Below, one piece after another: positions 2,182 to 29,174 of a DNA stretch of 64,000 nucleotides. The translations under genes and the position numbers were made by a program. The DNA is from an uncultured Vampirovibrionales bacterium (GTDB lineage Bacteria; Cyanobacteriota; Vampirovibrionia; Vampirovibrionales; Vampirovibrionaceae), in contig CAYMIG010000001.1 of NCBI GenBank assembly GCA_964390635.1, forward strand, positions 203,321-267,320, given 5' to 3'. Below the pieces are notes generated by a model. The model had not been told where the DNA came from. It made no database searches and saw only the letters and a program-made list of their open reading frames with translations. How positions within the stretch are numbered: the stretch's first letter is position 1; each line of letters begins with the position of its first letter.

Positions 2182-3229
2182 CCTGTTCCTTGCCTATGTA
2201 ACTGCCAAAATTGTATTCGCCGAGATACAGGTCGGGATTCTTCTCCAGCCGCTGGGCAATGGCCTCCAGTACATCGGGTTTGACGTCCACCTTGTCCACC
2301 TTGCATAGCTCGATGATGAGCAGCTCCGGGCTGACGCGGTATTTGGCCGAAAATTTCTGGATGTGGTGCATGTAGCTGGAGTGGAAGTCCGCAAAGCCGG
2401 CGACGATATCCAGGGATTCCTTGCCCTTCAGCTTGACCAGGGGCTTGATGAACTTCTTGCCGATTTCCATCACCTTGAGCAGGTTGATGTTCAGGGGAAC
2501 GCCTTTTTTGAGGAGCGCGGCCACCACCAGCTCGGTGGAGGCATTGCCGGCGCTGCGGCCCAGCCCTTGCAGGGAGGTGTCAATCAGCTCGATGCCAAGA
2601 TCTGCGGCGTACAGGGCGTTCGATACGGCAAGCCCTAAGTTGTCATGGCCGTGGAAGCCCACCTTCAGCTCGCTCACCTCGCGGATGGCGTTGAAATAGG
2701 CTTCAATCTGGTGCGGGAACATGCCCCCCGATGAATCCACGATGTACACGCCGTCCACGCCATAAGACTCCGACAGCTTGACCTGCTTGGCAAAGTCCTT
2801 GGGCGCCATGGCATACGACTTCATGTAGTTGGCCATCACGGTCATGCCGTAACCCTTGGCCTTCTCAATGAAGGGGCGCGAGCTTTCCACGCGGGTCACG
2901 TCGGTTCCCACGCGGATGAATTTCATGCCGTATTGCGCGGCCATGTCCAGGTCTTCCAGGCGGGCGATGCCCGGAATGCAGAACATACCCCACTGGGCCT
3001 TCTCTATGGCCCCGGCAGCGGCCATGATGTATTCCTCATCGGTGTGGATGGCCTCGCCATGCCCCATGTTGCTGCCGTTGAAACCGACCCCGTGGCCGAT
3101 TTCGATCCATTCCACGCCCGCAGCCTCCAGCTCCTTGCAGATGACCGCCGTATCAGAGGTGGTAAACGAGAAGTTGACGGCGTAACTGCCGTCACGAAGG
3201 GTGGTATCGAGAATCTGGATGGGAGGCAT
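2135..3229 (-). CDS. HMGL-like (DRE-TIM metallolyase) aldolase, 4-hydroxy-2-oxovalerate aldolase (DmpG/BphI/MhpE)-like
   Basis: 364 aa. N-terminal ILDTTLRDGSYAVNFSF...EIGHGVG matches the pyruvate carboxyltransferase/HMGL-like domain of DmpG-type aldolases. No DmpF-type acetaldehyde dehydrogenase partner is adjacent. Confidence 0.7.
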   Translation of the reverse strand: MPPIQILDTTLRDGSYAVNFSFTTSDTAVICKELEAAGVEWIEIGHGVGFNGSNMGHGEAIHTDEEYIMAAAGAIEKAQWGMFCIPGIARLEDLDMAAQYGMKFIRVGTDVTRVESSRPFIEKAKGYGMTVMANYMKSYAMAPKDFAKQVKLSESYGVDGVYIVDSSGGMFPHQIEAYFNAIREVSELKVGFHGHDNLGLAVSNALYAADLGIELIDTSLQGLGRSAGNASTELVVAALLKKGVPLNINLLKVMEIGKKFIKPLVKLKGKESLDIVAGFADFHSSYMHHIQKFSAKYRVSPELLIIELCKVDKVDVKPDVLEAIAQRLEKNPDLYLGEYNFGSYIGKEQDALSSFKEPTYTAQP

Positions 3230-10878: not shown

Positions 10879-12666
10879 ATGGACTTGAAAAAAGACAAAG
10901 AGCACTATCTCAGGCTCATAGCATACATGAAGCCTCACCGAAAGCGGTTTTTCATCTCGGTGTTGTCTTCCATCCCGGCCTCCTCCCTGAACGGGGTGAT
11001 GGCTTTTGCCGCCGGCCCCTTGCTGGACAGGCTTTTAAAGGAGCAGGACTACATGATCCTGCTGGCCGTGCCGGCCCTGGTGTTTACGGCCATGGTGCTG
11101 CAAGGCGTTTTCGAGTACATCAACGGCTACACCTCCAGCTATCTCAGCTACAGCATCAGCCGGGACATCCAGCAGGACCTGTTCAACAAGCTGATTACGC
11201 TGGATCTGGCCTTCTTCAAGTCCCGCAACACGGGCGAAATCTTCACCCGCTTCTACACCGACTGCAACCGCCTGCAACAGGCCATCGTCTCCAATTTGCA
11301 GGATTTCTCCATCCAGGTGTTCAGCTTCCTGTTCCTGGCCGGGGTGCTGTTTTACCGCAACTGGCAGTTCGCCTTTATTTCCATCGCCATTATCTCGATG
11401 ATCTGCATTCCGCTGTATTTCATCTCGCAGCGCATCCGCCGGCTGGATCACCAGCTGCGCGAGGTGGCCGCCCGCATGGTGAACATCTTCAGCGAGTACA
11501 TCCTGGGAGTGAAAGAAATCAAAAGCTTCCAGCTGAACGGCTACCAGAAGAAGCGTTTCGAGAAGACGCAGGTGGATTACTTCTCCAGCCTGCTGTCCTC
11601 GGCCAAGGCCGGCATGCTGCTGCGCCCGCTGATGCAGCTGATTGCCGCCACCGGCTTCTGCACCATCTTCATCCTGGGCCTGTACCAGGTGCGGGACGGG
11701 CACATGAGCATCGGCGACTTCACCTCCTTCCTGCTGGCGCTGGTGATGCTGTACAAGCCGGTGAAAACCATCGGCGGCATCTTCAGCCAGGTGCAGCGCA
11801 TTATGGCCCCGGCGGAGCGGGTTTTCGAGCTGCTGGACACCGAGCCCGGCATGGTGGAATCCAGCGAAGGCGTTCAGGTGCCGGACTTCGAGTCGCTGGA
11901 ATTCCGCAACGTGTGGTTCGAGTACAAGCCCGGCAAGCCGGTGCTGAAGGACATCAATTTCTCTCTGAAACAGGGCGAGGTGCTGGCCCTGGTGGGCGCC
12001 AGCGGCGGCGGCAAAACCACCCTCGCCGACATGGTCTCCCGCTTTATGGATCCCACGGAAGGCGAAATTTTGCTCAACGGGCTCGATTTGAAAACGGTGT
12101 CCGTCAAGTCGCTGCGCCGCCTGATCGGGTTGGTTTCACAGGAAACCCTGCTGTTTGACGCGACCATCCGCGAAAACATCCGCCTGGGCCGCCTGGATGC
12201 CACCGACGAGGAAATCGAGCAGGCTGCCCGGGACGCCTGCCTGGGCGACTGGATCGATTCGCTGGCCGATGGGCTGGATACCAAGGTGGGCGAGCGGGGC
12301 GGCATGGTCTCCGGCGGGCAGAAGCAGCGGATTGCCCTGGCCCGGGCCTTCCTGAAGCGCAGCCCGGTGCTGGTGCTGGATGAGGCCACCAGCGCACTCG
12401 ACAACGAATCCGAGGCCCTCATCCAGGAGGCCACCAAGCGCCTGATGGAAAACCGCACGGTCATCGTCATCGCCCACCGGCTGTCCACGGTGCGCTATGC
12501 GGACCGCATCATGGTGCTTTCCGACGGGCAGGTCATCGAAACCGGCAGCCACGACGAGCTTCTGGAGAAAAAGGGCATGTACCACAAGCTGTATCACTTG
12601 CAGTTCCGCCACGAGGAGCCGGGCTTTCTGGAGCGCCTGAAAACCTCGGCGGGCCTGGCGGGGTGA
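10879..12666 (+). CDS. ABC transporter, fused permease/ATPase (MsbA/PglK-like lipid or lipid-linked glycan exporter)
   Basis: 595 aa. Six predicted TM helices, then Walker A GASGGGKTT, ABC signature VSGGQKQRIALARA, Walker B VLVLDEATSALD and an H-loop. Confidence 0.85.
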   Translation: MDLKKDKEHYLRLIAYMKPHRKRFFISVLSSIPASSLNGVMAFAAGPLLDRLLKEQDYMILLAVPALVFTAMVLQGVFEYINGYTSSYLSYSISRDIQQDLFNKLITLDLAFFKSRNTGEIFTRFYTDCNRLQQAIVSNLQDFSIQVFSFLFLAGVLFYRNWQFAFISIAIISMICIPLYFISQRIRRLDHQLREVAARMVNIFSEYILGVKEIKSFQLNGYQKKRFEKTQVDYFSSLLSSAKAGMLLRPLMQLIAATGFCTIFILGLYQVRDGHMSIGDFTSFLLALVMLYKPVKTIGGIFSQVQRIMAPAERVFELLDTEPGMVESSEGVQVPDFESLEFRNVWFEYKPGKPVLKDINFSLKQGEVLALVGASGGGKTTLADMVSRFMDPTEGEILLNGLDLKTVSVKSLRRLIGLVSQETLLFDATIRENIRLGRLDATDEEIEQAARDACLGDWIDSLADGLDTKVGERGGMVSGGQKQRIALARAFLKRSPVLVLDEATSALDNESEALIQEATKRLMENRTVIVIAHRLSTVRYADRIMVLSDGQVIETGSHDELLEKKGMYHKLYHLQFRHEEPGFLERLKTSAGLAG

Positions 12667-12676
12667 GGGTGCGGCC

Positions 12677-14020
12677 ATGATCAACACCTTGCTCTGGGGT
12701 TTCACCAAGGAGTATTCGCCCACCGTGCGCTACCTGCGCGAGGGGGGCGTGTGCGACGTGCGGGTGTGGATCGGCTCCGACAAGGAATGCACGCACTCGC
12801 GCAAAGACTTCATGACCATGCGGTTCAAGTACGAATCGCCCGAGCTTTGCGATGAGGCGGTCTACGAGACGGTCTTCCGCAACTACTACGCCTACCTCGA
12901 TCGCACCAACACCTTCAACCGCATGAACCAGCACAACATTTACGAGTACCTGAACCTGTTCAACCGGCAAATCAACTACTTCTACCACCTGCTGAAAAGC
13001 GAGGGCATCCAGCTGGTGGTGCTGAACCGCCCGCCGCACTACGGGCCGGATACCATCCTCTACGAAGTTGCCCGGGCTATGGGGCTCAAGATCCTCATTT
13101 TATGCCCCTCGTTTTTCGAGGACCGCTTCTGGTACTGCTTCGACATGGACGACTATGGCCGCTTCGCCGACGTGCCCGAGGTGCTGCCCTACCCGGAAGT
13201 GACCCTGGAGAAAAAGCATGAAAAATTCATTCCCTACCACCTGAACATCCCGGAGTACCGCTATTCCGTATGGCAGGCCATCCGGGACTTCAGCCAGGGC
13301 AAGCTGACCGCCTTCCAGAAGCTGGCCGAGTACCGCAAGTTCAAGCGCAACCTGAACGCCATGATCGATCCCCACATCGATCTTTCGCAAAAATTCGTCT
13401 ACTTCCCGCTGCACCTGCAACCTGAACTGTCCACCTCCACGCTGGGCGGCCTGTACTGCGACCAGGTACTGGCGCTGGAGCGCCTGTCCCGCCTGCTGCC
13501 GGACGATTTCTACATTTATGCCAAAGACCACCTGCTGCAAACCGAGTTTATGCGGGACGAGAATTATTTCGACCGCCTGCGGGCCATTCCCAACCTCAGG
13601 CTGACCCCCACCACCATGAGCACTTACGAGTTGATCCGGCATTCGCAGTTTGTAGCCACCATTGCCGGCACCGTGGGCTGGGAGGCCATTACTGGCGGCA
13701 AGAACGTGCTGCTGTTTGGCCAGACCTGGTATATGACCCTGCCGGGCGTTTTCCAGTTTAACGACACTTTCCGGCTGGAGCACATCCTGAATTACCAGCT
13801 GGCGCATGACACCCTGGAGCGCGCCGTGGGCAAGCTACAAAGCCGCATGGGCCGGGGTGTGCTTTCGCATGAATATTACCCGCTGAAGGATTTCGATGCC
13901 GAGCGCAACGGCCAGCGCCTTGCGGAGTTCCTGCATCAGGCCGCGGGGCACCTTTTCGGGGCATCCGGCCCGACTTCCCAAAGCGCCCGGCATGATGGCC
14001 GGTTGAGCGTTCCCCGCTAA
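12677..14020 (+). CDS. KpsS/KpsC-like (Capsule_synth, GT107-like) putative CMP-ulosonic acid (pseudaminyl) transferase
   Basis: 447 aa. Segment FVYFPLHLQPELSTSTLGG resembles the conserved PLHxQxDSQ-like region of KpsS/KpsC family retaining transferases. The family assignment is by motif recollection only. Confidence 0.4.
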   Translation: MINTLLWGFTKEYSPTVRYLREGGVCDVRVWIGSDKECTHSRKDFMTMRFKYESPELCDEAVYETVFRNYYAYLDRTNTFNRMNQHNIYEYLNLFNRQINYFYHLLKSEGIQLVVLNRPPHYGPDTILYEVARAMGLKILILCPSFFEDRFWYCFDMDDYGRFADVPEVLPYPEVTLEKKHEKFIPYHLNIPEYRYSVWQAIRDFSQGKLTAFQKLAEYRKFKRNLNAMIDPHIDLSQKFVYFPLHLQPELSTSTLGGLYCDQVLALERLSRLLPDDFYIYAKDHLLQTEFMRDENYFDRLRAIPNLRLTPTTMSTYELIRHSQFVATIAGTVGWEAITGGKNVLLFGQTWYMTLPGVFQFNDTFRLEHILNYQLAHDTLERAVGKLQSRMGRGVLSHEYYPLKDFDAERNGQRLAEFLHQAAGHLFGASGPTSQSARHDGRLSVPR

Positions 14021-15570
14021 AAGTAGTTGGCCAGGCCGGGCACCCGGGATTGCCGGTTGACCGGGCGGGGCCGGATGCCGGACCAGCGACAGTGTTCTTC
14101 ATCCAGCATGAGCTTTTGATTGGAAGTACTGCAGGTATAAAGCGGAACCCAGGGCTCTTTTTCCCAGGGACGCACGTTGCCCTCGTAATCCAGCGGCATG
14201 GGGATGGCGCTGACCAGCACGGTGATTTCGCGCAGCCGCTGTTTTTGCTCCGGGGTCAGGTGGGAGTATTCCAGGTTCACCAGCCCCCGCAGCTGCCGCT
14301 TGTCCCCGGAGGTCAGCATGTAGCCCGGCTTGATGCTCAGCTTGTGGTAAAAGTTGGCCACCCGGTAGGCCACAATGCCGGGGAAGCGTGGATAGTAATG
14401 CATGCCCGGATAGCAGGTTTTGTCCGGTTTGAACATGGCAAACGGTTCCAGGAGGGTGCCGTCGTCCAGCTTGCTTTGCAGCCGGTAGGCCACCCCACCA
14501 ATGATGTGCACTTTGGTGAACAGTTCGCCGCTCAGCTCACGCACGGTGTAAAAGGTCAGCTTTTCCAGCAGCGGGTGATCGGCGGTGTTTTTCCACAGGG
14601 CCGATTCGACCACGCTTGGGGGCAGAACCAGCCGCTTCAGCATGGGCTTGCTGAAAGAATAGAGCGACAACACCATGAAAAACACCAGCAGCGGCGCCAC
14701 CGCTTTTTCCAGGCGGGGGTTGGCCGGAACGGTGACCGGATTGTAGTGCAATTGCGGAGGCAGGCGTTTTTCCAGGAAGCCGGGCAGCTTGGTCATGCTT
14801 AAGAATAGTATTCCGTAGAACTGGCCCACAAAGCCGATAAGCCCCAGGGAGGCCGGAAAGATGAGCCCGCCGAAAAACACGAACGTGGCCAGCGCGGCAA
14901 CCCATCGAAGACGTTCGAACAGGAAGACCAGCAGGCCCACTTCCAGCACGATGGTGGCGTGGTTGATCAGCACCATGAGCCAGCGTTGATCGAGCATGGG
15001 GCTTGTCCAGTCCTGTTTTATCCACGGCTGCATGTAGAAGTAGTAAAATCCGTTGCCTTGCTGCCACAGCGGATCCAGCCATTTGAACACGCCCGCCGAG
15101 AAGAACAGCAAGCCGGCGTTAAAGCCCAGCATGAACACGGGCCAGACGGGCTGTAATGGCACGGGTGCCTCGGGCGATTTGCGCTTGCGCAGCCAGGCTT
15201 CCAGCGACCATACGCCGTCCAGTTTCAGGAACATGGACCAGAAGGAGATGAGCATGAGCAGGTCTTCCTGCGCCGACAGGCCCAGCGTGCGTCCCTTGCC
15301 CAGAGTAAGCATCAGCAGCACGTGCTGGATGACACTGGTGACCCGCCCGCCGATGCCCAGCGTCCAGACGAAAATGGCCACCAGCCAAAGGTGCCGGACC
15401 ACGTTGATAAAGGCCACCGTGCGTTCGGAGTGCCCATACCAGACCAGGGGCATCACTTCGGCGAACTTGATCCAGTAGTAAATCAGGAACAGCCCGAAGC
15501 CGATCCGGTAAATTGCCAGCCAATACGGGTTGGCGCTGGTTTTAATCAGCTTGTCCAGGAATTTGTTCAT
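14017..15570 (-). CDS. HTTM domain (vitamin K-dependent gamma-carboxylase-like) integral membrane protein
   Basis: 517 aa. N-terminal ~300 aa are polytopic membrane with the HTTM-like pattern (PYWLAIYRIGFGLFLIYYW ...). The C-terminal ~200 aa are soluble. Adjacent to a DCC-family gene, the usual HTTM partner. Confidence 0.5.
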   Translation of the reverse strand: MNKFLDKLIKTSANPYWLAIYRIGFGLFLIYYWIKFAEVMPLVWYGHSERTVAFINVVRHLWLVAIFVWTLGIGGRVTSVIQHVLLMLTLGKGRTLGLSAQEDLLMLISFWSMFLKLDGVWSLEAWLRKRKSPEAPVPLQPVWPVFMLGFNAGLLFFSAGVFKWLDPLWQQGNGFYYFYMQPWIKQDWTSPMLDQRWLMVLINHATIVLEVGLLVFLFERLRWVAALATFVFFGGLIFPASLGLIGFVGQFYGILFLSMTKLPGFLEKRLPPQLHYNPVTVPANPRLEKAVAPLLVFFMVLSLYSFSKPMLKRLVLPPSVVESALWKNTADHPLLEKLTFYTVRELSGELFTKVHIIGGVAYRLQSKLDDGTLLEPFAMFKPDKTCYPGMHYYPRFPGIVAYRVANFYHKLSIKPGYMLTSGDKRQLRGLVNLEYSHLTPEQKQRLREITVLVSAIPMPLDYEGNVRPWEKEPWVPLYTCSTSNQKLMLDEEHCRWSGIRPRPVNRQSRVPGLANYF

Positions 15571-15593
15571 AGCGTTCCGTCACTCTGTCGACT

Positions 15594-15977
15594 TTACCGA
15601 ATTTTGCAGGCTGTCAGCCCCAGCCGCTGGGAGATGGCCGCCCGGTTGCGGGCCACCAGGTTGTAAACCAGCACTTCGGCCAGCAGGAAAACGGGAATAA
15701 TATAAAGCAGCCAGATGAAGTACCGGTAGGGGGGAAATTGCAGGAAAAACCGGTTGAAGGCGAGCGCCCCGTGGCTGACCTGGCCGGTTTCGGTATCCAG
15801 AAAGTACATGCCCTTCTCAAAGCTGGCGTCGGACAGTTTATGGGCCTGCTTGAACGCCTCGTCCAACCCCTGGTAGGGCTCCACCTTGACCCGCCTGGTG
15901 GCCCGCAACGGGGCGATGGTGTCCACGAATTTCTGGCAGATGCCGCAGTCTCCGTCGTAAAAAAGGTATCGGGTCAT
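15594..15977 (-). CDS. thiol-disulfide oxidoreductase DCC family (DUF393)
   Basis: 127 aa starting MTRYLFYDGDCGICQKFV; the DGDCxxC motif is diagnostic of DCC/DUF393. The start ATG was confirmed as CAT at 15975-15977 on the plus strand. Confidence 0.7.
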   Translation of the reverse strand: MTRYLFYDGDCGICQKFVDTIAPLRATRRVKVEPYQGLDEAFKQAHKLSDASFEKGMYFLDTETGQVSHGALAFNRFFLQFPPYRYFIWLLYIIPVFLLAEVLVYNLVARNRAAISQRLGLTACKIR

Positions 15978-15982
15978 GGCGT

Positions 15983-16579
15983 TCACACGGTTTCCGCCGC
16001 AGCGGGCTCCTTGCGGTAGTTCAGGATGCGTGCGGGCACCCCGCCCACCACGGCATAGGGGGGAACGTCCTTGTTCACCACGGCGCCGGCAGCAATCACC
16101 GCCCCGTCGCCTACTTTTACGCCGTCCAGAATAGTCACGTGGCTGCCAATCCACACGTCTCGGCCAATTTCCACGCCCAGTTCCGAGAGGCCCTGGTCTT
16201 TGATGGGCCGATCCGGGTCGGCGAAGATGTGGTTGGCGGGGATAATGACCACCCCGTAGGCGATGGCGGTGTTGTCGCCGATGGTCAGGCCACCGTTGCC
16301 ACAGATGACCGAAAAGTGGTGTATCGAAACCCTCCGCCCGATGCGGATGGGGCCGCCCTTGGCAAGCAACTGCACGTAATCGCCAATGTGGGTGTCCTCG
16401 CCAAGCTCGATACTCCCCGGTGAGCGGGCCGACAGCGTGGCCTTGCCGGAAATATAGGTGGTCTTGCCCCAGCGCACGTTGCCATGCTCCTCGAACCACC
16501 AGAGCTTCCAGCGGTGTTTCAGCTTGTACCACCGGGGCAGGAAGCCTTTGAGAAACCATTTGTAGCGGCGAAGCTTCAT
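15983..16579 (-). CDS. left-handed beta-helix (hexapeptide repeat) acetyltransferase, WcaF/maltose O-acetyltransferase-like
   Basis: Repeated [LIV]-G-x-x-x-x hexapeptides, e.g. [49 protein letters not shown]. Confidence 0.8.
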
Positions 16580-16615: not shown

Positions 16616-17458
16616 CTAGGGTTTCAGTTTGCGGAACAGATACCCGGGCATGGGGAAGGTTGTAATCTGCTGGTACTGGGTTTCCAGGAAGCGTTTGCAC
16701 TCCAGCCGCACGTCGGCGGCCTCCTGCAAATGATCGCCCCGGATTTCGTTCTCTTTCATCGGGTAGCAGGAAGTCCAGAAGAAGCCGCCCACCGGCAGCG
16801 CGTCATACATGTTCTGGATAACCCGCATGGGCTCGCGCACGTGCTCCAGTACCTCGCCGGCAATCACGATGTCAGCCTTTTCAAGGCGCGGGTACAGGTT
16901 CGCCTCGGTCACCGGCAGCACATCCACCGCGATGCCGCGCTGGGCAAAGCGCCAGCGGGCAAAGTCCAGGTTGCCGCCTTCAATGTCCACCAGCTTTACC
17001 TGGTAGCCCTGGCTGGCAAAGGACAGGCCATAATCCGCCACCCCGCAGCCGTAGTCAATCACGGTGGTGCGCTTTCTCTCCGCCGGAGGGAACTGGGTGT
17101 TCAGGTATTTAATCAGCCGGAAAGCGGCGGGCACCCGGTTGATGGCCAGCATCAGGCGTCCCACGTACAGGCGCTGGGCGCGCTGGTAGTCCTCCAGCAG
17201 GCCGCTATCGGTGGTGAAGTTCTTGAAAATGTCAATGAGCGCCTGCTTGTTGTCGATGCTCTCGATCCGGCGGCAATCTTCCTCGCTCAGGCCGTAGAAG
17301 TCGGCCAGCTCGCGGCAGCGATCCGCCTGGTGATCCATGTTGGGATTCCGCTGGGTCAGCCGGATAAGCTGCTCTTCGGTCAGCTGGCTGGTCTCCGGGT
17401 CGGTCAGCAGCGTTTTCAGCTTCAGGGCCCGTTTTTGGATGGATTTCACCAGTTTCAC
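16616..17458 (-). CDS. class I SAM-dependent methyltransferase
   Basis: Motif I VIDYGCGVADYGL and motif II-like DIVIAGEVLEHV. The start was set at GTG (17458), preceded by GGAGGTGA; the longer ATG-started ORF lacks an SD. Confidence 0.65.
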   Translation of the reverse strand: MKLVKSIQKRALKLKTLLTDPETSQLTEEQLIRLTQRNPNMDHQADRCRELADFYGLSEEDCRRIESIDNKQALIDIFKNFTTDSGLLEDYQRAQRLYVGRLMLAINRVPAAFRLIKYLNTQFPPAERKRTTVIDYGCGVADYGLSFASQGYQVKLVDIEGGNLDFARWRFAQRGIAVDVLPVTEANLYPRLEKADIVIAGEVLEHVREPMRVIQNMYDALPVGGFFWTSCYPMKENEIRGDHLQEAADVRLECKRFLETQYQQITTFPMPGYLFRKLKP

Positions 17459-17542
17459 GTTCGCTTCACCTCCAGGGTTTTGCAACAGTGTAGTGGAAAA
17501 CCGGGCGTTCGCCAACCGCAATTGGCTTTGCGCAAAGGTTTA

Positions 17543-18514
17543 TTAATTGACCAGTTTGCGGAAGGATGCCCGGGTAAGGTAGCGGAACGCGCGGAAATTG
17601 TTCCGGTTCATGCGGAAGGCGTCGCCAAACAGCTTGATGGCGGCCTCGTTGTCGCCCAGGGTGTAGTATTTCCGGCCCAGCTCAAACAGTTGCAGGCTGT
17701 ACTTCTTGCGGTTGCGGCGGATGTCCTCTTCCATAAAGCGGCTGATGAAAGCCTGCTGCTCTCGTAAGGGGAGTTTTTCCAGGCTGTCGCTGCCGGTTTC
17801 GGCCCGCTGATGGTAGAGCATCTGGGCCAGGCTTTTCATTTGCAGCTGTACCAGCCGCCCTGACGACATGGAATGCCCATGAACGCGGTATTGGTACAGT
17901 ACTTCGGGGATAATGCCCATTTGATACCGATCCAGCACCCGCAGGTACAGCTCGTAGTCCACGGCGGCGGGGAAGGATTCCCGGTAGCCACCCGCTGATT
18001 CCAGCACCGGGCGGCGCATCATGACCGTGCCGTGGCAGATGGGGTTATCCGTGAGCAGCAGATTCTTCAGCGCCGCCGGGTCCGAGGGCAGGCTTTTGAC
18101 GGTTTTCAAGGGCTGGTTGCGGCTGTCCACCTGTGCGTAATAGCTGGCCACCAGCCCCAGCTCGGGATGAGACTCCAGGAAGGCGACCTGTTTTTCCAGC
18201 CGGGTGGGCATGCACAGGTCGTCGGCGTCCATGATGGCCAGCAGCAACCCGGCAGATGCCTGCCAGGCCCGGTTCAGGCTGGCTGCCCGCCCCGCCTGCT
18301 CTTGGTGTAAGGGGCGAATCCGGTTGTCCCGGGCGGCATAGGCGTCGAGTATCGCGCCGGTTCCATCCGTGGAGCCGTCGTTTACCACTACCGCCTCAAA
18401 GTGGGGATAGCTTTGGGCCAGCAGGCTGTCCAGGGCCTGGGGCAGGAAGGCCGCCTCGTTGCGGGCGGTCATCAGGACGGAAACGACGGGTGCCTGGATT
18501 GGCGGAGGGCTCAT
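17543..18514 (-). CDS. glycosyltransferase family 2
   Basis: N-terminal VSVLMTARNEAAFL...VVVNDGSTDGT...DADD fits the GT-A fold with DXD. Confidence 0.8.
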   Translation of the reverse strand: MSPPPIQAPVVSVLMTARNEAAFLPQALDSLLAQSYPHFEAVVVNDGSTDGTGAILDAYAARDNRIRPLHQEQAGRAASLNRAWQASAGLLLAIMDADDLCMPTRLEKQVAFLESHPELGLVASYYAQVDSRNQPLKTVKSLPSDPAALKNLLLTDNPICHGTVMMRRPVLESAGGYRESFPAAVDYELYLRVLDRYQMGIIPEVLYQYRVHGHSMSSGRLVQLQMKSLAQMLYHQRAETGSDSLEKLPLREQQAFISRFMEEDIRRNRKKYSLQLFELGRKYYTLGDNEAAIKLFGDAFRMNRNNFRAFRYLTRASFRKLVN

Positions 18515-18572
18515 GGGGATTCCTGTTGCGGATCACGGATGGGGCTACCAATTTTGTTATAGTACTACTGTT

Positions 18573-19637
18573 ATGTCTCCATTCAAAATCGGATTTGAGG
18601 CCAACCCCACCGGGGGGCCGGGCATTTTTCTCACCCGCCTGCGCACCGCCCTGGAGGAAAGCGGCCATTTCGACGCCGCGCATCCCGACGCCTGGATTCA
18701 GCTGTGCTATGCCCCCATGCCGGAGGCCATCATGCAAAATGCCGCTGTCCGCAAGGTAATTCGGGTGGATGGGGTTTACAGCTACCGGCATCGTCTGCTG
18801 CCCGTGCCGCTGCCGGGGGTGGACGACTGGCTTAGCCGCCGCGGGAACCGCAAGCGCAACCGCCCCATCGTGCGGAACCTGGCCCTGGCCGATGAAATTG
18901 TCTACCAGTCGGAATTCTCCCGGCAGGCCACCTGGAAGTTCATTACCCCTACCCCGCCGGGCGCGGTGATTTTCAACGGGGTGGACACCCGCCAGTTCGC
19001 CCCGCCCTCGCCCCGCATTCGGGATGATCGCCTTGTGAACATCCTGATTTCGCATTCCTACCGACCGCATAAACGCCTGCATGAGGCGATGCGTATTATT
19101 GCCGAGTTGAAACGCCGCGACGCTGCCCGCCGGTGGCACCTGCATGTGGCGGGGGGGGATGACGGCCTGTCCATTCCCTATGCCCAACAGGTGATGCAGG
19201 CTGAAGGGCTTGGGCCGGACGTGGTGACGTTTTACGGAAAGCTGCCCTATGACCACCTGTTCGAGCTTTATGGCCGTTGCGATTTCGTGCTGGGGCTTTC
19301 CTTCTGGGACTTTTGCCCCAACGTCATCGTGGAGGCCCTGGCCTGCGGGTTGCCGGTGCTGGGCGTCGATTTTGGCGGCATCCCCGAACTCACCGGGGAG
19401 GCCGGTCGCCTGGTGAAGGAGGAGATCGCCTTCGACTACCAGGACCTGTACGATTTCAAGGCCCTGCCCAGGGTGAATGCCGGGCAGTATGTCGACGAGG
19501 CGCTTTGCCTGCTCGATCGCCTGGCAGAATATCAGCACCTGGCCCGAGAACGCGCCGTGCGGGAGCTGGATATCCGGGTGACGGCCCGGCGCTACCTGGA
19601 CGCTTGCCAGGCGGCTAGTCAATCAGTTCCCAGTTAA
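18573..19637 (+). CDS. glycosyltransferase family 4 (GT-B, retaining)
   Basis: C-terminal segment ...DFCPNVIVEALACGLPVLGVDFGGIPELTGEAG matches the GT4 E-x7-E region. The start was moved to the internal ATG at 18573. Confidence 0.7.
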   Translation: MSPFKIGFEANPTGGPGIFLTRLRTALEESGHFDAAHPDAWIQLCYAPMPEAIMQNAAVRKVIRVDGVYSYRHRLLPVPLPGVDDWLSRRGNRKRNRPIVRNLALADEIVYQSEFSRQATWKFITPTPPGAVIFNGVDTRQFAPPSPRIRDDRLVNILISHSYRPHKRLHEAMRIIAELKRRDAARRWHLHVAGGDDGLSIPYAQQVMQAEGLGPDVVTFYGKLPYDHLFELYGRCDFVLGLSFWDFCPNVIVEALACGLPVLGVDFGGIPELTGEAGRLVKEEIAFDYQDLYDFKALPRVNAGQYVDEALCLLDRLAEYQHLARERAVRELDIRVTARRYLDACQAASQSVPS

Positions 19638-20667
19638 GGGCGGTGCCGCGAGAGATGGGGCGGCTGGCTTTTTTGCCGATGACATCGGTGTAAAACTTGG
19701 GAGGCAGCCCGTAGCCGGGGCGAATAATCCGCACGTTCCTCTCGGTAAAGGTCTCGCCGGCTTGCATGCTTTCCGTCACGTAGATTGACCGCCGAAAAAC
19801 ACGGTTCTGCCTCTCTTTGCCGGTCAGGCCGTAATGCACCCGTCCCAGGGCGGCATGCGCGGTGCGGGTTGCCTCGACCAGCTGTTTCAGCTCGGCGGGC
19901 TCCAGCGAGAAGGCGGAATCAACCCCGCCATCGGCCCGGCACAGGGTAAAATGCTTTTCAATGGCGACTGCTCCCAGCGCGGTGGCGGCCACGGCGGCAC
20001 CGATGCCCAGGGTATGGTCGGAAAGACCCACCGGCACGTCAAAAAGCTGGGAAAGATGCGGGATGGTACGCAGGTTGCTTTCGGCGGGATCCGCCGGGTA
20101 GCTGCTGGTGCATTTCAGCATTATGAGATGTTCGCAACCCGCTTCCCGGGCGGCCTGGACGGCTTCCTGGATTTCCGCCACCGTGGCCATGCCGGTGGAC
20201 ATAATCAGCGGTTTGCCGGTGGCAGCCACCTTGCGGATGAGGGGGAGATCCACCAGCTCAAACGAGGCGATTTTGTACAGGGGGGCGTCCAGCGATTCCA
20301 GAAAATCCACGGCGGTGGGATCAAAAGGCGAGCTGAAGCCGATCAGGCCTAGTTCCCGGCAGCGCTTGAAGATAGGCTCATGCCAATCCCAAGGGGTGTG
20401 GGCTTTCTGGTACAGTGCATACAGCGATTCGCCCTTCCACAGGCTTTCCGGGTTCTCAATGAAGAATTCGCCCTCGCCCTTGTCAATGGTCATGGTGTCC
20501 GCGGTGTAGGTCTGGATTTTGAGGGCGTCCGCACCCGCGGCGGCGGCGGCTTCCACAATGGCCAGGGCCCGTTCCAGCGACTGGTTGTGGTTGCCGGACA
20601 TCTCGGCAATGATAAAGGGCGGATGCTCTGGCCCGATGGGGCGGTTTTGAATGCTGAAGGGCTTCAT
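19615..20667 (-). CDS. pseI: pseudaminic acid synthase (NeuB-family nonulosonic acid synthase)
   Basis: 350 aa from MKPFSIQNRPIGPEHPPFIIAEMSGNHNQSLERA... The NeuB/PseI N-terminal TIM-barrel signature and a C-terminal antifreeze-like (SAF) domain are present. The start overlaps the pseGH stop (ATGA). Confidence 0.8.
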   Translation of the reverse strand: MKPFSIQNRPIGPEHPPFIIAEMSGNHNQSLERALAIVEAAAAAGADALKIQTYTADTMTIDKGEGEFFIENPESLWKGESLYALYQKAHTPWDWHEPIFKRCRELGLIGFSSPFDPTAVDFLESLDAPLYKIASFELVDLPLIRKVAATGKPLIMSTGMATVAEIQEAVQAAREAGCEHLIMLKCTSSYPADPAESNLRTIPHLSQLFDVPVGLSDHTLGIGAAVAATALGAVAIEKHFTLCRADGGVDSAFSLEPAELKQLVEATRTAHAALGRVHYGLTGKERQNRVFRRSIYVTESMQAGETFTERNVRIIRPGYGLPPKFYTDVIGKKASRPISRGTALNWELID

Positions 20668-22181
20668 CGCGGGCTTTCCGTTGGGGTGGGGCAATACGGT
20701 GGCTCTATTGTAGCGCATGCCGGGGCTGGCGACAGCCACTTGCGGAAAGCGTGCGAATGGGGGCGGTATCCGGCTTTCCGAAAGGCTTTGAGCGAGGCCT
20801 GGTTGCCGTCCAAAATAGTGGCGTCAATGTAACGAATCCCGGGGCAGTTTTTTTGCAGCCAGCGGCTTCCTTCTTCCAGCAAGGCCGTGCCAAAACCCCG
20901 TCCGTGGGTGCCCGGAACCAGATACACCGAGACCACGGCGCCTTCGCCATCCAAGTCGTAGCGCAGCACGCCGACCGGCTCGCCTTTTGACTCCCCGATG
21001 AGCAAGACCCGGTGCGGGTTGGCCAAGGTGCGATTGAACCATGCGGCGTGGGTTTCCCAGTCGATTTCGGCGGGATCCAGGGCGAAGCGACGGTTGCTTT
21101 CATCGTTTCGCCAGGTGAAGACCTGCTCGCAGTCAGAAGGTTCCGCCTGTCGAAGGGTTAATGGCGGCTGGCAAAGTATTCGGGCTACCCGGTTTGCGCC
21201 CTGCCCGTCTACCAGTTCCCTCCCGTGGCGGGACAGAAACGCTCGCAACGCGGGATTGTCCAGCAGGGCCTCGATTTGCCGGGCGATCGTTGCCTCGTTG
21301 ACCTCCTCGTGGCTTCCCAGGTAGAGCAGATAGCCGTCGTGGGCCAGGTTGCGGGTGATTTCCACCTGGTTGTCCGCAATGGTGAGCACGATGGCGGGCA
21401 GGCCCGCGCTGAGCCGCTCCCACGTGGCCGTGCCACCGGCGCCGACCGAGAGGGTGGCCCGGCCCATCAATTCCGCCATGTTGTCAACCTGGCAGTGGAA
21501 GCTGGCCCCCAGTTCCCGGCACAGCGCCTGCACGACTGTCTTTTGGGGATTGCTGTTGCCCACTACCACATCCACGGCCAAGGTGGGTCGCTTCAGCCCG
21601 CGTAGGGCCTCCAGAGCTTTAAGAGTGGCCCCCGCCGGATCGCTTCCACCGAAAAACACCAGCACGCGTTCATTTTCGCGCCGGGTAGTATCCCCGCCCG
21701 CCAGGGCAAAGTCAGGCCGCAATAGCGCATAGCCAGGGCCGGCCAGCAGGCTGCAATGGGCGGGGGTTAAATGGTTATAGCGTCCTACAGGCGAGGGAAA
21801 GTAGTTCTGATCGAGCAGCAGCTCACAATCGTGATGACGATTTGCCAGATCGTCCACTACCAGAACCCTTTGCGCGGATGGGCGCATGGCGCTTTCCCAT
21901 TCTGCATTTAGCCCGTAATGGTCTACCACCAGCCAGTCAAAGCACTTGCCCTCAAGCCGATCGATTGCGCTCGAAGGGCTGAAAGCGCTATCTTCAGCCA
22001 GGGTTAGCACCTCAAAGCCTTTTTCGCCTATCCAGCCGTTCATGTGGCCGGGTAGTTCCGCGCACAGGAACGTACAGGTTGTGCCCCGTGCCCGCAAGGC
22101 TTCCGCCAGCGTGAGGCAGCGCATAACGTGCCCGGTTCCAATGGAAACGGAGGCGTCGACCCGAAAAAGAACCTCAATCAC
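20664..22181 (-). CDS. pseG: bifunctional PseG (UDP-2,4-diacetamido-2,4,6-trideoxy-beta-L-altropyranose hydrolase) - PseH (GNAT N-acetyltransferase) fusion
   Basis: N-terminus VIEVLFRVDASVSIGTGHVMRCLTLAEAL matches the PseG start (MKVLFRSDSSxxIGxGH...) and uses a GTG start codon. The C-terminal ~170 aa carry GNAT motifs (VGVLRYDLDGEGAVVSVYLVPGTHGRGFGTALL). Confidence 0.75.
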   Translation of the reverse strand: MIEVLFRVDASVSIGTGHVMRCLTLAEALRARGTTCTFLCAELPGHMNGWIGEKGFEVLTLAEDSAFSPSSAIDRLEGKCFDWLVVDHYGLNAEWESAMRPSAQRVLVVDDLANRHHDCELLLDQNYFPSPVGRYNHLTPAHCSLLAGPGYALLRPDFALAGGDTTRRENERVLVFFGGSDPAGATLKALEALRGLKRPTLAVDVVVGNSNPQKTVVQALCRELGASFHCQVDNMAELMGRATLSVGAGGTATWERLSAGLPAIVLTIADNQVEITRNLAHDGYLLYLGSHEEVNEATIARQIEALLDNPALRAFLSRHGRELVDGQGANRVARILCQPPLTLRQAEPSDCEQVFTWRNDESNRRFALDPAEIDWETHAAWFNRTLANPHRVLLIGESKGEPVGVLRYDLDGEGAVVSVYLVPGTHGRGFGTALLEEGSRWLQKNCPGIRYIDATILDGNQASLKAFRKAGYRPHSHAFRKWLSPAPACATIEPPYCPTPTESPR

Positions 22182-23348
<1,167 letters not shown>

Positions 23349-23358
23349 GGCCCGCGCG

Positions 23359-24510
23359 GTGATTCCCTACGGAAGGCAGAATATCAGCGAGGCGGATATC
23401 CAGGCGGTTGTCGATGTGCTGCGCTCCGATTTCATCACCCAGGGGCCGGCTATCGAGCGTTTCGAGAAATCGGTGGCTGCCTACTGCGGAGTGAAATACG
23501 CGGTGGCAGTCAGTAATGCCACGGCGGGTTTGCATATTGCCTGTCTGGCTGCCGGGCTGAAAGCCGGGGAGTGGCTTTGGACCGTGCCCAACACGTTTGT
23601 GGCTTCCGCCAACTGCGCCCTGTATTGCGGGGCGAATGTCGATTTCGTGGACATTGACCCTCAAACCTACACTATCAGCCTGGACGCCCTCCACCTCAAG
23701 CTGGAAACTACCCCGCCGCAAAAGCGGCCCCGCGTTGTGGTGCCCGTACACTTTGCCGGGCAGTCCTGCGATATGATCGCAATCCAGGATCTGGCCGAGC
23801 AATACGGCTTTACCGTGTTGGAAGACGCTGCCCATGCCATTGGGGGGCGCTATGATGGTGAACCGATTGGCTGTTGCCGTTACTCCGATATGGCGGTGCT
23901 CAGCTATCACCCGGTTAAAATCATTACCACGGGCGAGGGTGGAATGGTTCTGACCAACCGGGAAGACCTCTATGAGGCCCTAATTCGGCTTCGAACTCAC
24001 GGAATCACGCGAAATGCCCCGCTTTTGCAGCATAAGGATGAAGGCCCCTGGTACTACGAACAGCTGGAGCTGGGCTATAACTACCGCCTGACGGATATTC
24101 AGGCCGCGCTGGGCCATAGCCAGATGGGTCGGCTGGATGCCTTCGTCCTGCGTCGCCGGGAACTGGCCGCCCGTTATGACGATTTGCTCAAGGATTTGCC
24201 GGTGGTTCGCCCCTGGCAGCACCCCAAAACGGAATCCGCCTGGCATTTGTATGTGGTTAAAATCTCCCCCGAGGCAGGCAAGAGCCGCCGGGAGGTTTTT
24301 GAAGCCCTCCGCGCGGCGGGGATTGGCGTTAACGTGCATTACATCCCGGTGCATACCCAGCCCTATTACCGGACCCTTGGATTCAAACCCGGCGATTTCC
24401 CCCAGTCAGAGGCTTATTATGCGCAGGCCATTACCCTGCCCCTATACTACGACCTCACCGAGACGGAGCAGGATGAGGTAGTATCCGCACTGGCCCGGGC
24501 GCTCCAATGA
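23359..24510 (+). CDS. pseC: UDP-4-amino-4,6-dideoxy-N-acetyl-beta-L-altrosamine transaminase (DegT/DnrJ/EryC1 family)
   Basis: VIPYGRQNISEADIQAV... start typical of PseC, with a GTG start. A PLP-lysine region (SYHPVKIITTGEGG) is present. Confidence 0.8.
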   Translation: MIPYGRQNISEADIQAVVDVLRSDFITQGPAIERFEKSVAAYCGVKYAVAVSNATAGLHIACLAAGLKAGEWLWTVPNTFVASANCALYCGANVDFVDIDPQTYTISLDALHLKLETTPPQKRPRVVVPVHFAGQSCDMIAIQDLAEQYGFTVLEDAAHAIGGRYDGEPIGCCRYSDMAVLSYHPVKIITTGEGGMVLTNREDLYEALIRLRTHGITRNAPLLQHKDEGPWYYEQLELGYNYRLTDIQAALGHSQMGRLDAFVLRRRELAARYDDLLKDLPVVRPWQHPKTESAWHLYVVKISPEAGKSRREVFEALRAAGIGVNVHYIPVHTQPYYRTLGFKPGDFPQSEAYYAQAITLPLYYDLTETEQDEVVSALARALQ

Positions 24511-28193: not shown

Positions 28194-28199
28194 GGTTTT

Positions 28200-29117: not shown

Positions 29118-29174
29118 ACCCGGAAGGTAAGGCACCCACCCGGTTGCAATACTGGTGCCGGTGCTCTGGTCGTT

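What the first reader, a model, noticed from the sequence alone, without database searches (positions are those of the whole stretch)
14017..15977. DCC thiol-disulfide oxidoreductase + HTTM (gamma-carboxylase-like) membrane protein pair inside a glycan locus
DUF393/DCC proteins and HTTM-domain proteins form a conserved two-gene module of unknown function in bacteria. Finding it in the same minus-strand operon as a GT2, a methyltransferase and a hexapeptide acetyltransferase suggests a redox-dependent membrane modification step. This could be, for example, carboxylation- or epoxidation-like chemistry on a lipid-linked glycan. Nothing comparable has been described.
Basis: inference. Interest (0 to 1): 0.55.

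Follow-up and report, generated by a model that had tools for sequence, protein, structure and literature searches.

The report
GGCX-like membrane enzyme in glycan locus
A small thiol-redox protein and a very divergent bacterial relative of the human vitamin K-dependent carboxylase sit at the end of a sugar-modification operon, and relatives of the carboxylase-like protein turn up in surface-sugar gene clusters of unrelated bacteria, which suggests an undescribed quinone- and oxygen-driven step in surface-sugar synthesis.

Summary

The quinol-activating residues are kept: K163 aligns with GGCX K218, E210 with D263, W169 with W223. The Glu- and CO2-pocket residues (N159/H160, F299) are not kept.

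The pair ends a tightly packed operon (GT2, methyltransferase, acetyltransferase, DCC, HTTM) inside a verified pseudaminic acid locus.

Ten of 12 informative loci with family members are glycan loci. They often carry orthologous ATP-grasp, methyltransferase, Amidohydro_2 and HMGL-like genes. DCC is an optional partner: adjacent in one other locus and fused into the protein in two family members.

Best reading: a periplasm-facing, quinol- and O2-dependent, epoxidase-type enzyme that acts on an exported glycan or its lipid carrier, with DCC as a cytoplasm-side quinone recycler. Its substrate and chemistry are unknown. I rate it a new variant of a known kind, moderately to highly interesting.

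The parts
14017..15570 (-). 517-aa two-domain membrane protein. Residues ~1-260 are a divergent HTTM/GGCX-like transmembrane core, ~261-289 a positively charged linker, ~290-312 a last TM helix, and ~330-517 a conserved C-terminal domain with no Pfam family. Candidate catalytic residues are K163, E210 and W169.
15594..15977 (-). 127-aa DCC1-like (DUF393) thiol-disulfide oxidoreductase with C11-x-x-C14 and a C-terminal hydrophobic helix (86-104).
15983..16579 (-). Hexapeptide-repeat (left-handed beta-helix) acyltransferase. Its stop codon lies 5 nt before the DCC start.
16616..17521 (-). Class I SAM-dependent methyltransferase. The ORF from the first start codon is 301 aa; a public gene call on the identical contig gives 280 aa.
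17543..18514 (-). GT2 family glycosyltransferase, the first gene of the minus-strand operon.
18515..18572 (.). 58-bp AT-richer divergent intergenic region between GT2(-) and GT4(+, called start 18573). It is the only gap in the five-gene run large enough for the operon promoter. That role is inferred, not shown.
12677..14020 (+). 447-aa Capsule_synth (PF05159, KpsS/KpsC-like) protein. It is convergent with the HTTM gene and overlaps its end by 4 nt. A Capsule_synth gene also lies directly next to the HTTM homolog in L006/L007.
10879..12666 (+). MsbA/PglK-like half-ABC exporter, the candidate flippase that brings the lipid-linked glycan to the periplasmic face.
2135..3229 (-). HMGL-like/DmpG-type aldolase. 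Close orthologs accompany the HTTM family in L005 (4e-106), L009 (2e-97) and L018 (5.8e-72).
19615..24510 (.). Pseudaminic acid core genes: PseI 19615-20739(-), PseG fused to a GNAT/PseH-like domain 20664-22181(-), PseB 22299-23348(+), PseC 23359-24510(+).

Best explanation
The two genes are the last cistrons of a five-gene glycan-modification operon inside a pseudaminic acid locus.

The 517-aa protein is a highly divergent member of the HTTM/vitamin K-dependent carboxylase superfamily. It belongs to a distinct subfamily that carries its own C-terminal domain, predicted to be periplasmic. It most likely binds a membrane quinol, probably menaquinol, and uses the K163-E210 pair (equivalent to GGCX K218-D263) to deprotonate it and react it with O2 at the outer face of the cytoplasmic membrane. 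The resulting oxygenated quinone base or oxidant would then modify a substrate held by the C-terminal domain. The likeliest substrate is the glycan, or a substituent on it, after export or flipping by the neighbouring MsbA/PglK-like transporter. Because the Glu-binding and CO2-trapping residues of GGCX are not conserved, an epoxidase-coupled deprotonation or oxidation is more likely than a GGCX-type carboxylation.

The DCC protein is a membrane-anchored CxxC oxidoreductase. Fusion proteins place it on the cytoplasmic side, where it would re-reduce the oxidised quinone or quinone epoxide. That role is analogous to VKOR, without homology to it.

Shown: gene identity, fold, conserved residues, operon packing and the conserved glycan context. 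Inferred: quinol and O2 use, topology, substrate, and the role of DCC.
For: - Homology and fold.
- Catalytic residues across 150 representatives: K163/K218 in 147 of 150; W169/W223 in 148 of 150; at the E210/D263 position E in 126, Q in 18 and D in 2; R222/R276 in 131 of 150. The roles of K218, D263 and W223 in GGCX come from PMC12589487 and PMC13486548; the latter also reports that D263E keeps 25% activity.
- Topology: the positively charged segments (N-terminus, 113-143, 261-289) all fall on one side, so K163 and the C-terminal domain face the other side, as in GGCX.
- Operon: gaps of 5 and 23 nt, no signals above chance, uniform GC3 and codon use.
- Conserved glycan context: L003, L004, L005, L006/7, L008, L009, L010, L012, L016, L018.
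- DCC link: adjacent directly upstream of the HTTM gene in L010, a 29% GC contig. In P0045 the DCC domain is inserted in the Arg-rich linker between the HTTM core and the last TM helix of a protein with the same C-terminal domain, and that protein sits in a comparable sugar locus.
- No cysteine is conserved in the HTTM family, so DCC is unlikely to work by disulfide exchange with it.
Against: - No biochemical data exist for any member of this subfamily.
- Neither Pfam nor NCBIfam recognises the window protein.
- N290, which hydrogen-bonds the hydroquinone in GGCX, is Leu here. H160/N159 and F299 are not conserved, so the second half-reaction cannot be read from the sequence.
- DCC is absent from 10 of 12 informative related loci, so it cannot be obligatory.
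- The topology of the window's DCC is ambiguous. Its C-terminal tail is more positively charged than the segment before its hydrophobic helix.
- The ATP-grasp, methyltransferase and Amidohydro_2 genes that most often accompany the family are missing from the window. The window locus may therefore use the enzyme differently.
- The organism, its quinone type and its oxygen lifestyle are unknown.
Confidence: 0.5

Rival explanations
1. The HTTM-fold protein does not use a quinol. It serves as a non-redox membrane component of glycan assembly, for example a transferase, a chain-processing or coupling enzyme, or a scaffold for the exported glycan. The invariant Lys, Glu and Trp would then serve another chemistry, and DCC would be an unrelated redox accessory.
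For: - The family sits where polytopic glycan-processing proteins are usually encoded, next to Wzy_C, Wzx, Wzm/Wzt and Capsule_synth genes.
- The aromatic-rich periplasmic cap (G172, G174, Y176, Y177, W183 conserved) could equally be a sugar-binding surface.
- N290 and the Glu and CO2 pockets are lost.
Against: - The only structural relative is GGCX.
- The best-conserved residues are those that GGCX uses for hydroquinone deprotonation and naphthoquinone binding: K218, D263 (as Glu), W223 and A214/G215.
- Repeated coupling to a CxxC oxidoreductase, including a fusion, points to redox chemistry.
Confidence: 0.2
2. The enzyme is a quinol epoxidase, but its target is a lipid rather than the sugar: the polyprenyl carrier, a membrane lipid, or the quinone pool itself. 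This would parallel the lipid-remodelling role proposed for giant-virus VKOR plus GGCX-like epoxidase modules.
For: - The best viral structural match is the Yasminevirus epoxidase-desaturase.
- Like the viral proteins, this family keeps K218, has Glu at D263 and a hydrophobic residue at N290, and lacks the carboxylase segment.
- The active site lies within the membrane interface.
Against: - Two thirds of the family (100 of 150) carry a conserved soluble C-terminal domain with invariant or near-invariant polar and aromatic residues (F351, H355, E375, D383, W474). That suggests a non-lipid ligand.
- The neighbours are sugar-nucleotide and glycan enzymes, not lipid enzymes.
Confidence: 0.15
3. 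It is a genuine vitamin K-dependent carboxylase that carboxylates a Glu or Asp residue. The residue could belong to a peptide or protein (GGCX-, MloH- or SdpB-like) or to an amino acid attached to the glycan.
For: - It belongs to the GGCX superfamily.
- A bacterial orthologue, MloH, carboxylates an aspartyl residue.
- Related loci encode L-amino-acid-ligase-type ATP-grasp enzymes that could attach an amino acid to a sugar.
Against: - GGCX N159/H160 are A100/Q101 here and are variable in the family.
- F299, which stacks on CO2, is I245 here and is Phe in only 12 of 150 (residue roles).
- No sequence match to the GGCX 374-418 segment or the luminal domain.
- No SdpB or other NCBIfam hit.
- The window has no ortholog of the ATP-grasp cassette gene.
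Confidence: 0.1
4. The pair is a chance passenger, a recent insertion or a fortuitous neighbour with no role in the glycan pathway.
For: The window lacks the ATP-grasp, methyltransferase and Amidohydro_2 partners common elsewhere. Two related loci, L002 and L014, show no clear glycan context.
Against: - GC, GC3 and codon usage are indistinguishable from neighbours.
- Gaps of 5 and 23 nt leave no room for independent signals.
- Ten of 12 informative related loci are glycan loci from phylogenetically distant genomes.
Confidence: 0.04

Closest known systems
[quoted passage not shown]
   Same: - Profile-level sequence homology (E=1.8e-11).
- Conserved equivalents of K218, D263 (as Glu), W223, A214/G215 and R276.
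- Same inferred topology: N-terminus inside, catalytic Lys at the outer face, and an extra-cytoplasmic C-terminal domain after a last TM helix.
   Different: - About 15% identity, and not detected by PF05090.
- The Glu pocket (N159/H160), N290 and CO2-stacking F299 are replaced.
- The C-terminal domain has no detectable sequence similarity to the GGCX luminal or propeptide-binding domain.
- The context is bacterial glycan biosynthesis, not Gla-protein maturation.
Giant-virus VKOR plus gamma-carboxylase-like epoxidase(-desaturase) modules (PMC13486548)
   Same: - A thiol oxidoreductase gene sits next to a GGCX-like protein that keeps the catalytic Lys, has Glu at the D263 position and a hydrophobic residue at N290, and lacks the carboxylase segment.
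- That module is proposed to couple quinol epoxidation to modification of a non-protein membrane-associated substrate.
- The Yasminevirus protein is the best viral structural match (E=3.5e-6).
   Different: - The redox partner here is a DCC1-like thioredoxin-fold protein, not VKOR.
- The partner enzymes are glycan enzymes, not a desaturase.
- This family has its own C-terminal domain.
- Both systems are hypotheses without demonstrated epoxidase chemistry.
Bacterial HTTM-DCC1 fusion proteins, e.g. Melghirimyces A0A1G6IBF2 with its DUF5819 partner (bioRxiv 10.64898/2026.08.19.745780)
   Same: HTTM and DCC1-like domains are functionally linked. The same linkage appears in this family as the fusions P0045 and P0109.
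   Different: - In the window they are separate genes.
- The window protein has a fused C-terminal domain instead of a separate DUF5819 partner.
- That work does not place the proteins in glycan loci.
MloH, the vitamin K-dependent carboxylase orthologue of malonomycin biosynthesis (Law et al. 2018, as cited)
   Same: A bacterial HTTM-superfamily enzyme recruited to a biosynthetic gene cluster for a non-protein product.
   Different: MloH is reported to carboxylate an aspartyl residue of a PKS-NRPS intermediate. No such substrate or carboxylase signature is evident here. I did not compare the sequences directly.

Membership tests
HTTM / vitamin K-dependent carboxylase superfamily (PF05090; GGCX) | Match to the Pfam HTTM model above the gathering score | tested here: not met
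   No Pfam hit for the window protein even at E<=10. Of 61 aligned homologs, 30 do match PF05090 (best E=3.3e-16).
HTTM / vitamin K-dependent carboxylase superfamily (PF05090; GGCX) | Significant profile-level sequence homology to GGCX over the transmembrane core | tested here: met
   The profile of 61 family members matches GGCX chains at E=1.8e-11, profile positions 16-279 against GGCX ~52-346.
HTTM / vitamin K-dependent carboxylase superfamily (PF05090; GGCX) | GGCX-type transmembrane fold | tested here: met
   [not shown]
HTTM / vitamin K-dependent carboxylase superfamily (PF05090; GGCX) | Catalytic lysine (K218) with its acidic partner (D263) and the quinone-pocket Trp (W223) | tested here: met
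   K163 is Lys in 147 of 150. The E210 position is E in 126, Q in 18 and D in 2. W169 is Trp in 148 of 150.
Gamma-glutamyl carboxylase proper (GGCX function) | Glu-binding pocket (N159, H160, Y395) and CO2-trapping F299; conserved 374-418 segment | tested here: not met
   A100/Q101 replace N159/H160. I245 replaces F299 (Phe in 12 of 150). There is no alignment beyond GGCX residue ~346 (residue roles).
Gamma-glutamyl carboxylase proper (GGCX function) | Quinol- and O2-dependent epoxidase and carboxylase activity | not testable with these tools
   This requires biochemistry.
DCC1-like thiol-disulfide oxidoreductase (PF04134/DUF393) | Pfam match above the gathering score, with the D-x-x-C-x-x-C motif near the N-terminus | tested here: met
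   54 bits against a cut-off of 27.8, covering 112 of 113 profile positions. The motif is D8-G-D-C11-G-I-C14.
DCC1-like thiol-disulfide oxidoreductase (PF04134/DUF393) | Thiol-disulfide oxidoreductase activity | not testable with these tools
Conserved DCC+HTTM two-gene module | The pair recurs, adjacent or fused, in related loci | tested here: inconclusive
   The pair is adjacent in the same order in L010 (DCC Pfam E=1e-4, below the gathering score; motif YYDGECPFC). It is fused in P0045 (locus L018) and in P0109. It is absent from 10 of 12 informative related loci.
Single operon with GT2, methyltransferase and acetyltransferase | Same strand, short gaps, no internal promoter or terminator signals | tested here: met
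   Gaps are 5 nt (AT-DCC), 23 nt (DCC-HTTM) and 36 nt (MT-AT). Consensus scans are at chance level, with no site in an intergenic gap. Transcription itself was not tested.
Pseudaminic acid biosynthesis locus | PseB, PseC, PseG, PseI (plus PseH, PseF) present | tested here: met
   Scores against cut-offs: PseB 533.5 against 407.75, PseC 557.6 against 423.5, PseG 285.6 against 153.55, PseI 505.8 against 340.25. The PseH-like GNAT domain is below its cut-off (42.3 against 93.1). The cytidylyltransferase is identified only at Pfam CTP_transf_3 level.

The most novel reading that the evidence does not exclude
A bacterial 'vitamin K cycle' is dedicated to surface-glycan tailoring. A GGCX-like enzyme would use menaquinol and O2 at the periplasmic face to generate a strong base or oxidant that chemically alters an exported polysaccharide or glycolipid, for example by C-H deprotonation leading to epimerisation, carboxylation or oxidation of a sugar or its substituent. 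A cytoplasm-facing DCC protein, analogous to VKOR but not homologous to it, would regenerate the quinol. This would be the first carbohydrate-directed member of the vitamin K-dependent enzyme class and the first function for DCC/DUF393 proteins in bacteria.
Probability: 0.3. Interest if true: 0.85.

Novelty: new variant of a known kind. Interest (0 to 1): 0.62.

Why it matters
Vitamin K-dependent oxygenation chemistry is known mainly from one animal enzyme that modifies proteins, plus one antibiotic pathway. Bacterial HTTM and DCC/DUF393 proteins are numerous, and almost all lack an assigned function.

This work shows that a distinct HTTM subfamily keeps the quinol-activating residues, carries its own extra-cytoplasmic domain, and is embedded again and again in surface-glycan loci of distant bacteria. 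That gives the family a testable biological setting. It points to an unrecognised, oxygen- and quinone-dependent type of glycan tailoring. It also offers a concrete hypothesis for DCC proteins as quinone or epoxide reductases.

It matters for annotation too: Pfam and NCBIfam miss the window protein entirely, and half of the 61 aligned homologs (31) get no Pfam HTTM hit.

Tried and rejected
- Direct Pfam and NCBIfam scans of the 517-aa protein found nothing, even at E<=10.
- All three word-indexed homolog searches returned only the query itself. The third, run with the 61-sequence alignment, was wasted.
- Single-sequence AlphaFold2 gave an unusable model (pLDDT 43.5).
The 4-sequence alignment found only 3 genome loci and 2 metagenome loci.
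- The AFDB50 fold library was unavailable.
- I could not identify the organism. The window has no rRNA, tRNA or Rfam hit, the cluster look-up gave no names or accessions, and the window's own genome was not among the three loci returned by the genome collection scan.
- I tested whether the acetyltransferase and methyltransferase beside DCC-HTTM in L010 are orthologs of the window's. They are related only at superfamily level, so I do not claim a conserved four-gene block.
- I tested whether the window holds the ATP-grasp, methyltransferase and Amidohydro_2 cassette. It does not, at E<=1e-3.
- I considered that DCC might reduce a disulfide in the HTTM protein and rejected it, because no cysteine is conserved in the family.
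- An SdpB-like assignment is not supported, because there is no NCBIfam hit.
- Literature searches for HTTM or GGCX-like proteins in polysaccharide or O-antigen contexts found nothing relevant. The library covers only open-access papers and bioRxiv.


Full report
**1. What is at the coordinates**

The interval 14017-15977 holds exactly two minus-strand ORFs.

The upstream ORF, 15594-15977, is 127 aa. It matches Pfam PF04134 (DCC1-like thiol-disulfide oxidoreductase) over 112 of 113 profile positions, at E=4.8e-14 and 54 bits against a cut-off of 27.8. It has the family motif YDGDCGIC at residues 7-14 and a single strongly hydrophobic helix at 86-104.

The downstream ORF, 14017-15570, is 517 aa. 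It is a polytopic membrane protein over its first ~310 residues, followed by a ~200-residue soluble part. There is no Pfam hit even at E<=10 and no NCBIfam hit.

**2. Is the 517-aa protein an HTTM/GGCX relative? Yes, a very divergent one**

Word-indexed searches found only the protein itself. An exhaustive phmmer search of 1.84 billion cluster representatives found 247 proteins at E<=1e-3 and 24 at E<=1e-30. Most are 480-620 aa and align over both domains, at 21-36% identity.

- Of 61 aligned homologs, 30 hit PF05090 HTTM (best E=3.3e-16). No other Pfam family recurs.
- A profile of the 61 sequences matches human vitamin K-dependent gamma-carboxylase (GGCX) chains at E=1.8e-11, profile positions 16-279 against GGCX ~52-346. 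The next PDB hit is at E=0.21.
- AlphaFold2 with that alignment gave a confident model, pLDDT 90.6 and pTM 0.91. Single-sequence prediction was useless at pLDDT 43.5.
- Foldseek against the PDB returns GGCX and nothing else: 15 chains at E from 1.8e-8 to 1.3e-6, then a jump to E>0.2.
- Among viral models, the best hit is the Yasminevirus 'desaturase' A0A5K0UBG6 (E=3.5e-6), the epoxidase-desaturase fusion discussed in PMC13486548.

The aligned part is the transmembrane core. The C-terminal domain shows no sequence match to the GGCX luminal domain. No Pfam family covers the C-terminal domain in any of the 61 homologs.

**3. Active-site comparison**

I aligned 150 family representatives and the GGCX segment to the family HMM. 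GGCX residue roles come from PMC12589487, PMC13486548 and PMC12647623.

| GGCX residue | Role in GGCX | Window residue | Conservation in 150 representatives |
|---|---|---|---|
| K218 | Base that deprotonates the hydroquinone | K163 | Lys in 147 |
| D263 | Acidic partner of K218 (D263E keeps 25% activity; viral proteins have Glu) | E210 | E 126, Q 18, D 2 |
| W223 | Naphthoquinone pocket | W169 | Trp in 148 |
| A214/G215 | Isoprenyl tunnel | A159/G160 | conserved |
| R276 | role not stated in the papers read | R222 | Arg in 131 |
| N159/H160 | Coordinate the substrate Glu | A100/Q101 | variable |
| N290 | Hydrogen bond to the hydroquinone | L236 | Leu in 101 |
| F299 | Stacks on CO2 | I245 | Phe in 12 |

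The half-site that starts quinol oxygenation is preserved. The half-site that defines Glu carboxylation is not. The giant-virus proteins interpreted as 'epoxidase but not carboxylase' show the same pattern.

No cysteine is conserved anywhere in the family; the maximum is 21 of 150 in any column.

The C-terminal domain is present in 100 of 150 representatives. Its own conserved residues include F351 (103 of 103), H355 (87 of 103), F380, E375, D383 and W474.

**4. Topology (inferred)**

Net-positive segments lie at the N-terminus, at 113-143 and at 261-289. In the model's helix order they all fall on one side of the membrane. That puts K163, the aromatic-rich cap (166-195) and the C-terminal domain on the opposite side, the periplasm. 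This is the GGCX arrangement.

**5. Operon and locus**

The minus-strand run is GT2 (17543-18514), class I methyltransferase (16616-17521), hexapeptide acyltransferase (15983-16579), DCC and HTTM.

- Gaps are 36 nt (MT-AT), 5 nt (AT-DCC) and 23 nt (DCC-HTTM).
- The consensus scan found one promoter-like site, inside the methyltransferase gene, against 2.0 expected by chance. It found 9 terminator-like sites against 7.6 expected, all inside coding sequence.
- The only sizeable gap is the 58-bp AT-richer divergent region between GT2 and the plus-strand GT4 gene.
- GC, GC3 (0.80) and codon usage of the two genes match their neighbours. Nothing suggests recent insertion.
- The HTTM gene ends in a 4-nt convergent overlap with a Capsule_synth (PF05159) gene.

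The surrounding ~30 kb is a glycan locus:

- PseB, PseC, PseG (fused to a GNAT domain) and PseI pass NCBIfam equivalog cut-offs.
- Also present are a CMP-sugar-type cytidylyltransferase; a WbuX, HisH and WbuZ-like trio of the kind associated with acetamidino or amidation modification; and an MsbA/PglK-like ABC exporter.
- Further genes encode a DltB-like MBOAT, a PMT_2 (GT-C) protein, an acyl-CoA ligase and an HMGL/DmpG-type aldolase.

**6. Related loci: the decisive comparative evidence**

I retrieved loci for family members from genomes and metagenomes whose GC ranges from 29% to 72%. Twelve besides the window are informative.

Ten of the twelve are sugar or glycan loci:

| Locus | Source | Neighbouring genes |
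|---|---|---|
| L005 | P0003, the closest homolog (36% identity) | two epimerases/dehydratases, DegT, Asn-synthase-type amidotransferase, HTTM, Amidohydro_2, methyltransferase, HMGL/DmpG, ATP-grasp, WbmS-like, formyltransferases |
| L006/7 | P0004 | PseB ortholog (2e-117), CTP_transf_3+AKR, SDR, HTTM, then Capsule_synth directly downstream |
| L008 | P0005 | |
| L009 | P0006 | |
| L012 | P0007 | with Wzz and Wzm/Wzt |
| L016 | P0011 | Wzx, GT4, Wzy_C, HTTM |
| L003 | Bremerella sp. | |
| L004 | Chitinophagaceae MAG | epimerase, DegT, AsnS, Amidohydro_2, MT, HTTM, ATP-grasp |
| L010 | metagenome contig, 29% GC | see below |
| L018 | P0045 | see below |

L002 and L014 show no clear glycan context.

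Orthologous ATP-grasp, ~205-aa methyltransferase and Amidohydro_2 genes accompany the HTTM gene in six independent loci. The methyltransferase is also in L010 and in the short contig L011. The window has none of the three. The window's HMGL-like aldolase has close orthologs in L005, L009 and L018.

The glycan association therefore belongs to the family and is not an accident of this window.

**7. The DCC partner**

DCC is not a constant partner. A motif search, phmmer and a small DCC profile found it in only two other loci.

In L010 the order is DegT, AsnS, FemAB-like, hexapeptide transferase, methyltransferase, DCC, HTTM, GH130-like, FkbM, PhyH. There the DCC ORF has the motif YYDGECPFC and a PF04134 match at E=1e-4, below the gathering score. 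Its pairwise E-value to the window DCC is 5e-5. It lies directly upstream of the HTTM gene, as in the window. The hexapeptide transferase and methyltransferase there are not clear orthologs of the window's.

P0045 is a fusion protein. The DCC domain is inserted into the Arg-rich linker between the HTTM core and the last TM helix, and the protein has the same C-terminal domain. Its locus, L018, reads Amidohydro_2, HMGL ortholog, MT, GNAT, PIG-L, HTTM::DCC, MT, surface-carbohydrate glycosyltransferase. P0109 is an HTTM core with a C-terminal DCC domain.

A similar HTTM-DCC1 fusion in Melghirimyces is described in a 2026 preprint.

These are three independent couplings in unrelated genomes, and one of them is a domain fusion in the same kind of locus. 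That argues for a real functional link. The fusions also place the DCC domain on the cytoplasmic side. For the free-standing window DCC the charge distribution around its helix is ambiguous.

**8. Most likely mechanism**

Shown: the fold, the conserved K/E/W site, operon packing, the recurrent glycan context and the recurrent DCC coupling.

Inferred:
- The protein binds a membrane quinol. The two relatives with a named taxon belong to Planctomycetes and Bacteroidota, which to my knowledge make menaquinones.
- K163-E210 deprotonates the quinol, and O2 converts it to a strongly basic or oxidising intermediate at the periplasmic face.
- That intermediate acts on a substrate held by the C-terminal domain. 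The likeliest substrate is the glycan or one of its substituents after flipping by the MsbA/PglK-like exporter.
- The missing Glu and CO2 pockets favour deprotonation or oxidation over GGCX-type carboxylation.
- DCC, tapping cytoplasmic reductant, re-reduces the oxidised quinone or epoxide. It would be a functional analogue of VKOR without homology to it.
- Where DCC is absent, the respiratory quinol pool or an unlinked reductase would serve.

I put about 0.5 on this overall picture. Confidence is much higher for the identity and the glycan link, and lower for the chemistry.

The rivals, detailed in the structured fields, are a non-redox glycan-processing role (0.2), a lipid or carrier target (0.15), a true Glu/Asp carboxylase (0.1) and a chance passenger (0.04).

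**9. Comparison with what is known, and novelty**

The protein belongs to the HTTM/GGCX superfamily by profile, fold and catalytic dyad. It is not a gamma-glutamyl carboxylase, because the carboxylase-defining residues were tested and not met.

The closest functional parallels:
- The giant-virus VKOR plus epoxidase modules proposed to modify lipids (PMC13486548).
- HTTM-DCC fusion proteins (bioRxiv 10.64898/2026.08.19.745780).
- MloH in malonomycin biosynthesis (cited).

I found no publication that places an HTTM-family protein in a polysaccharide or glycoconjugate pathway. The searchable library is limited to open-access papers and bioRxiv.

I classify the finding as a new variant of a known kind: a GGCX-like quinol-activating enzyme subfamily with a new C-terminal domain, recruited to glycan loci and sometimes paired or fused with DCC.

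**10. Verdict**

The glycan link and the redox or epoxidase-like character hold up. The 'conserved two-gene module' and 'nothing comparable' statements need qualification, and carboxylation is the less likely chemistry. Interest is 0.62.

Noticed in passing
Related loci L003 17045-19701(-), L004 5682-9948, L005 9794-14746, L006/L007 29-2480, L008 1981-4555(-), L009 4955-6145 and 10511-12126(-): A conserved cassette of orthologous genes accompanies this HTTM family in six independent glycan loci: an L-amino-acid-ligase-type ATP-grasp, a ~205-aa class I methyltransferase and an Amidohydro_2 (decarboxylase/lactonase-type) gene. The methyltransferase is also in L010 and L011. Its product is unknown, and the window lacks all three.
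   Followed up: partly
window 2135-3229(-): An HMGL-like/DmpG-type aldolase (4-hydroxy-2-oxovalerate aldolase subfamily, 304 bits) has close orthologs next to HTTM-family genes in L005, L009 and L018. It may be a second marker of the same pathway, about 11 kb from the HTTM gene in the window. It sits beside an acyl-CoA ligase gene (673-2181) that overlaps it.
   Followed up: partly
window 4068-5510(+), 6823-7581(+), 7578-8357(+): The trio is a WbuX-type N-acetyl sugar amidotransferase (338.9 bits against a cut-off of 203.2), HisH, and a WbuZ/HisF-like protein. It is the trio associated with acetamidino or amidation modification of sugars. The opposite-strand ORF 4260-5471(-) listed mechanically is spurious (GC3 0.60, codon correlation 0.46).
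   Followed up: yes
window 14017-14020: The HTTM gene and the convergent Capsule_synth (PF05159) gene overlap by 4 nt at their 3' ends, with no room for a terminator. In L006/L007 a Capsule_synth gene lies directly downstream of the HTTM homolog on the same strand.
   Followed up: partly
window 26781-31034: A DltB-like MBOAT (26781-28193), an unassigned 305-aa ORF (28200-29117) and a PMT_2/GT-C-type 619-aa membrane protein (29175-31034, minus strand) lie at the edge of the locus. They are further candidates for periplasm-side glycan modification. An MBOAT also occurs in L009.
   Followed up: no
L003 9215-11566(+): The Bremerella HTTM homolog is 783 aa. Its ~260-residue N-terminal extension has no Pfam match, and it is followed by a 1052-aa ORF with no Pfam match.
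   Followed up: no
window 5540-6907(+): A DUF4910/DUF2172/peptidase M28-like protein sits between the amidotransferase genes. Its role in the Pse locus is unexplained.
   Followed up: no
window 36982-38994(+): A 670-aa ORF has a C-terminal beta-class carbonic anhydrase-like region (residues 446-638), about 21 kb from the GGCX-like gene. I did not check whether it is linked to CO2/bicarbonate supply.
   Followed up: no
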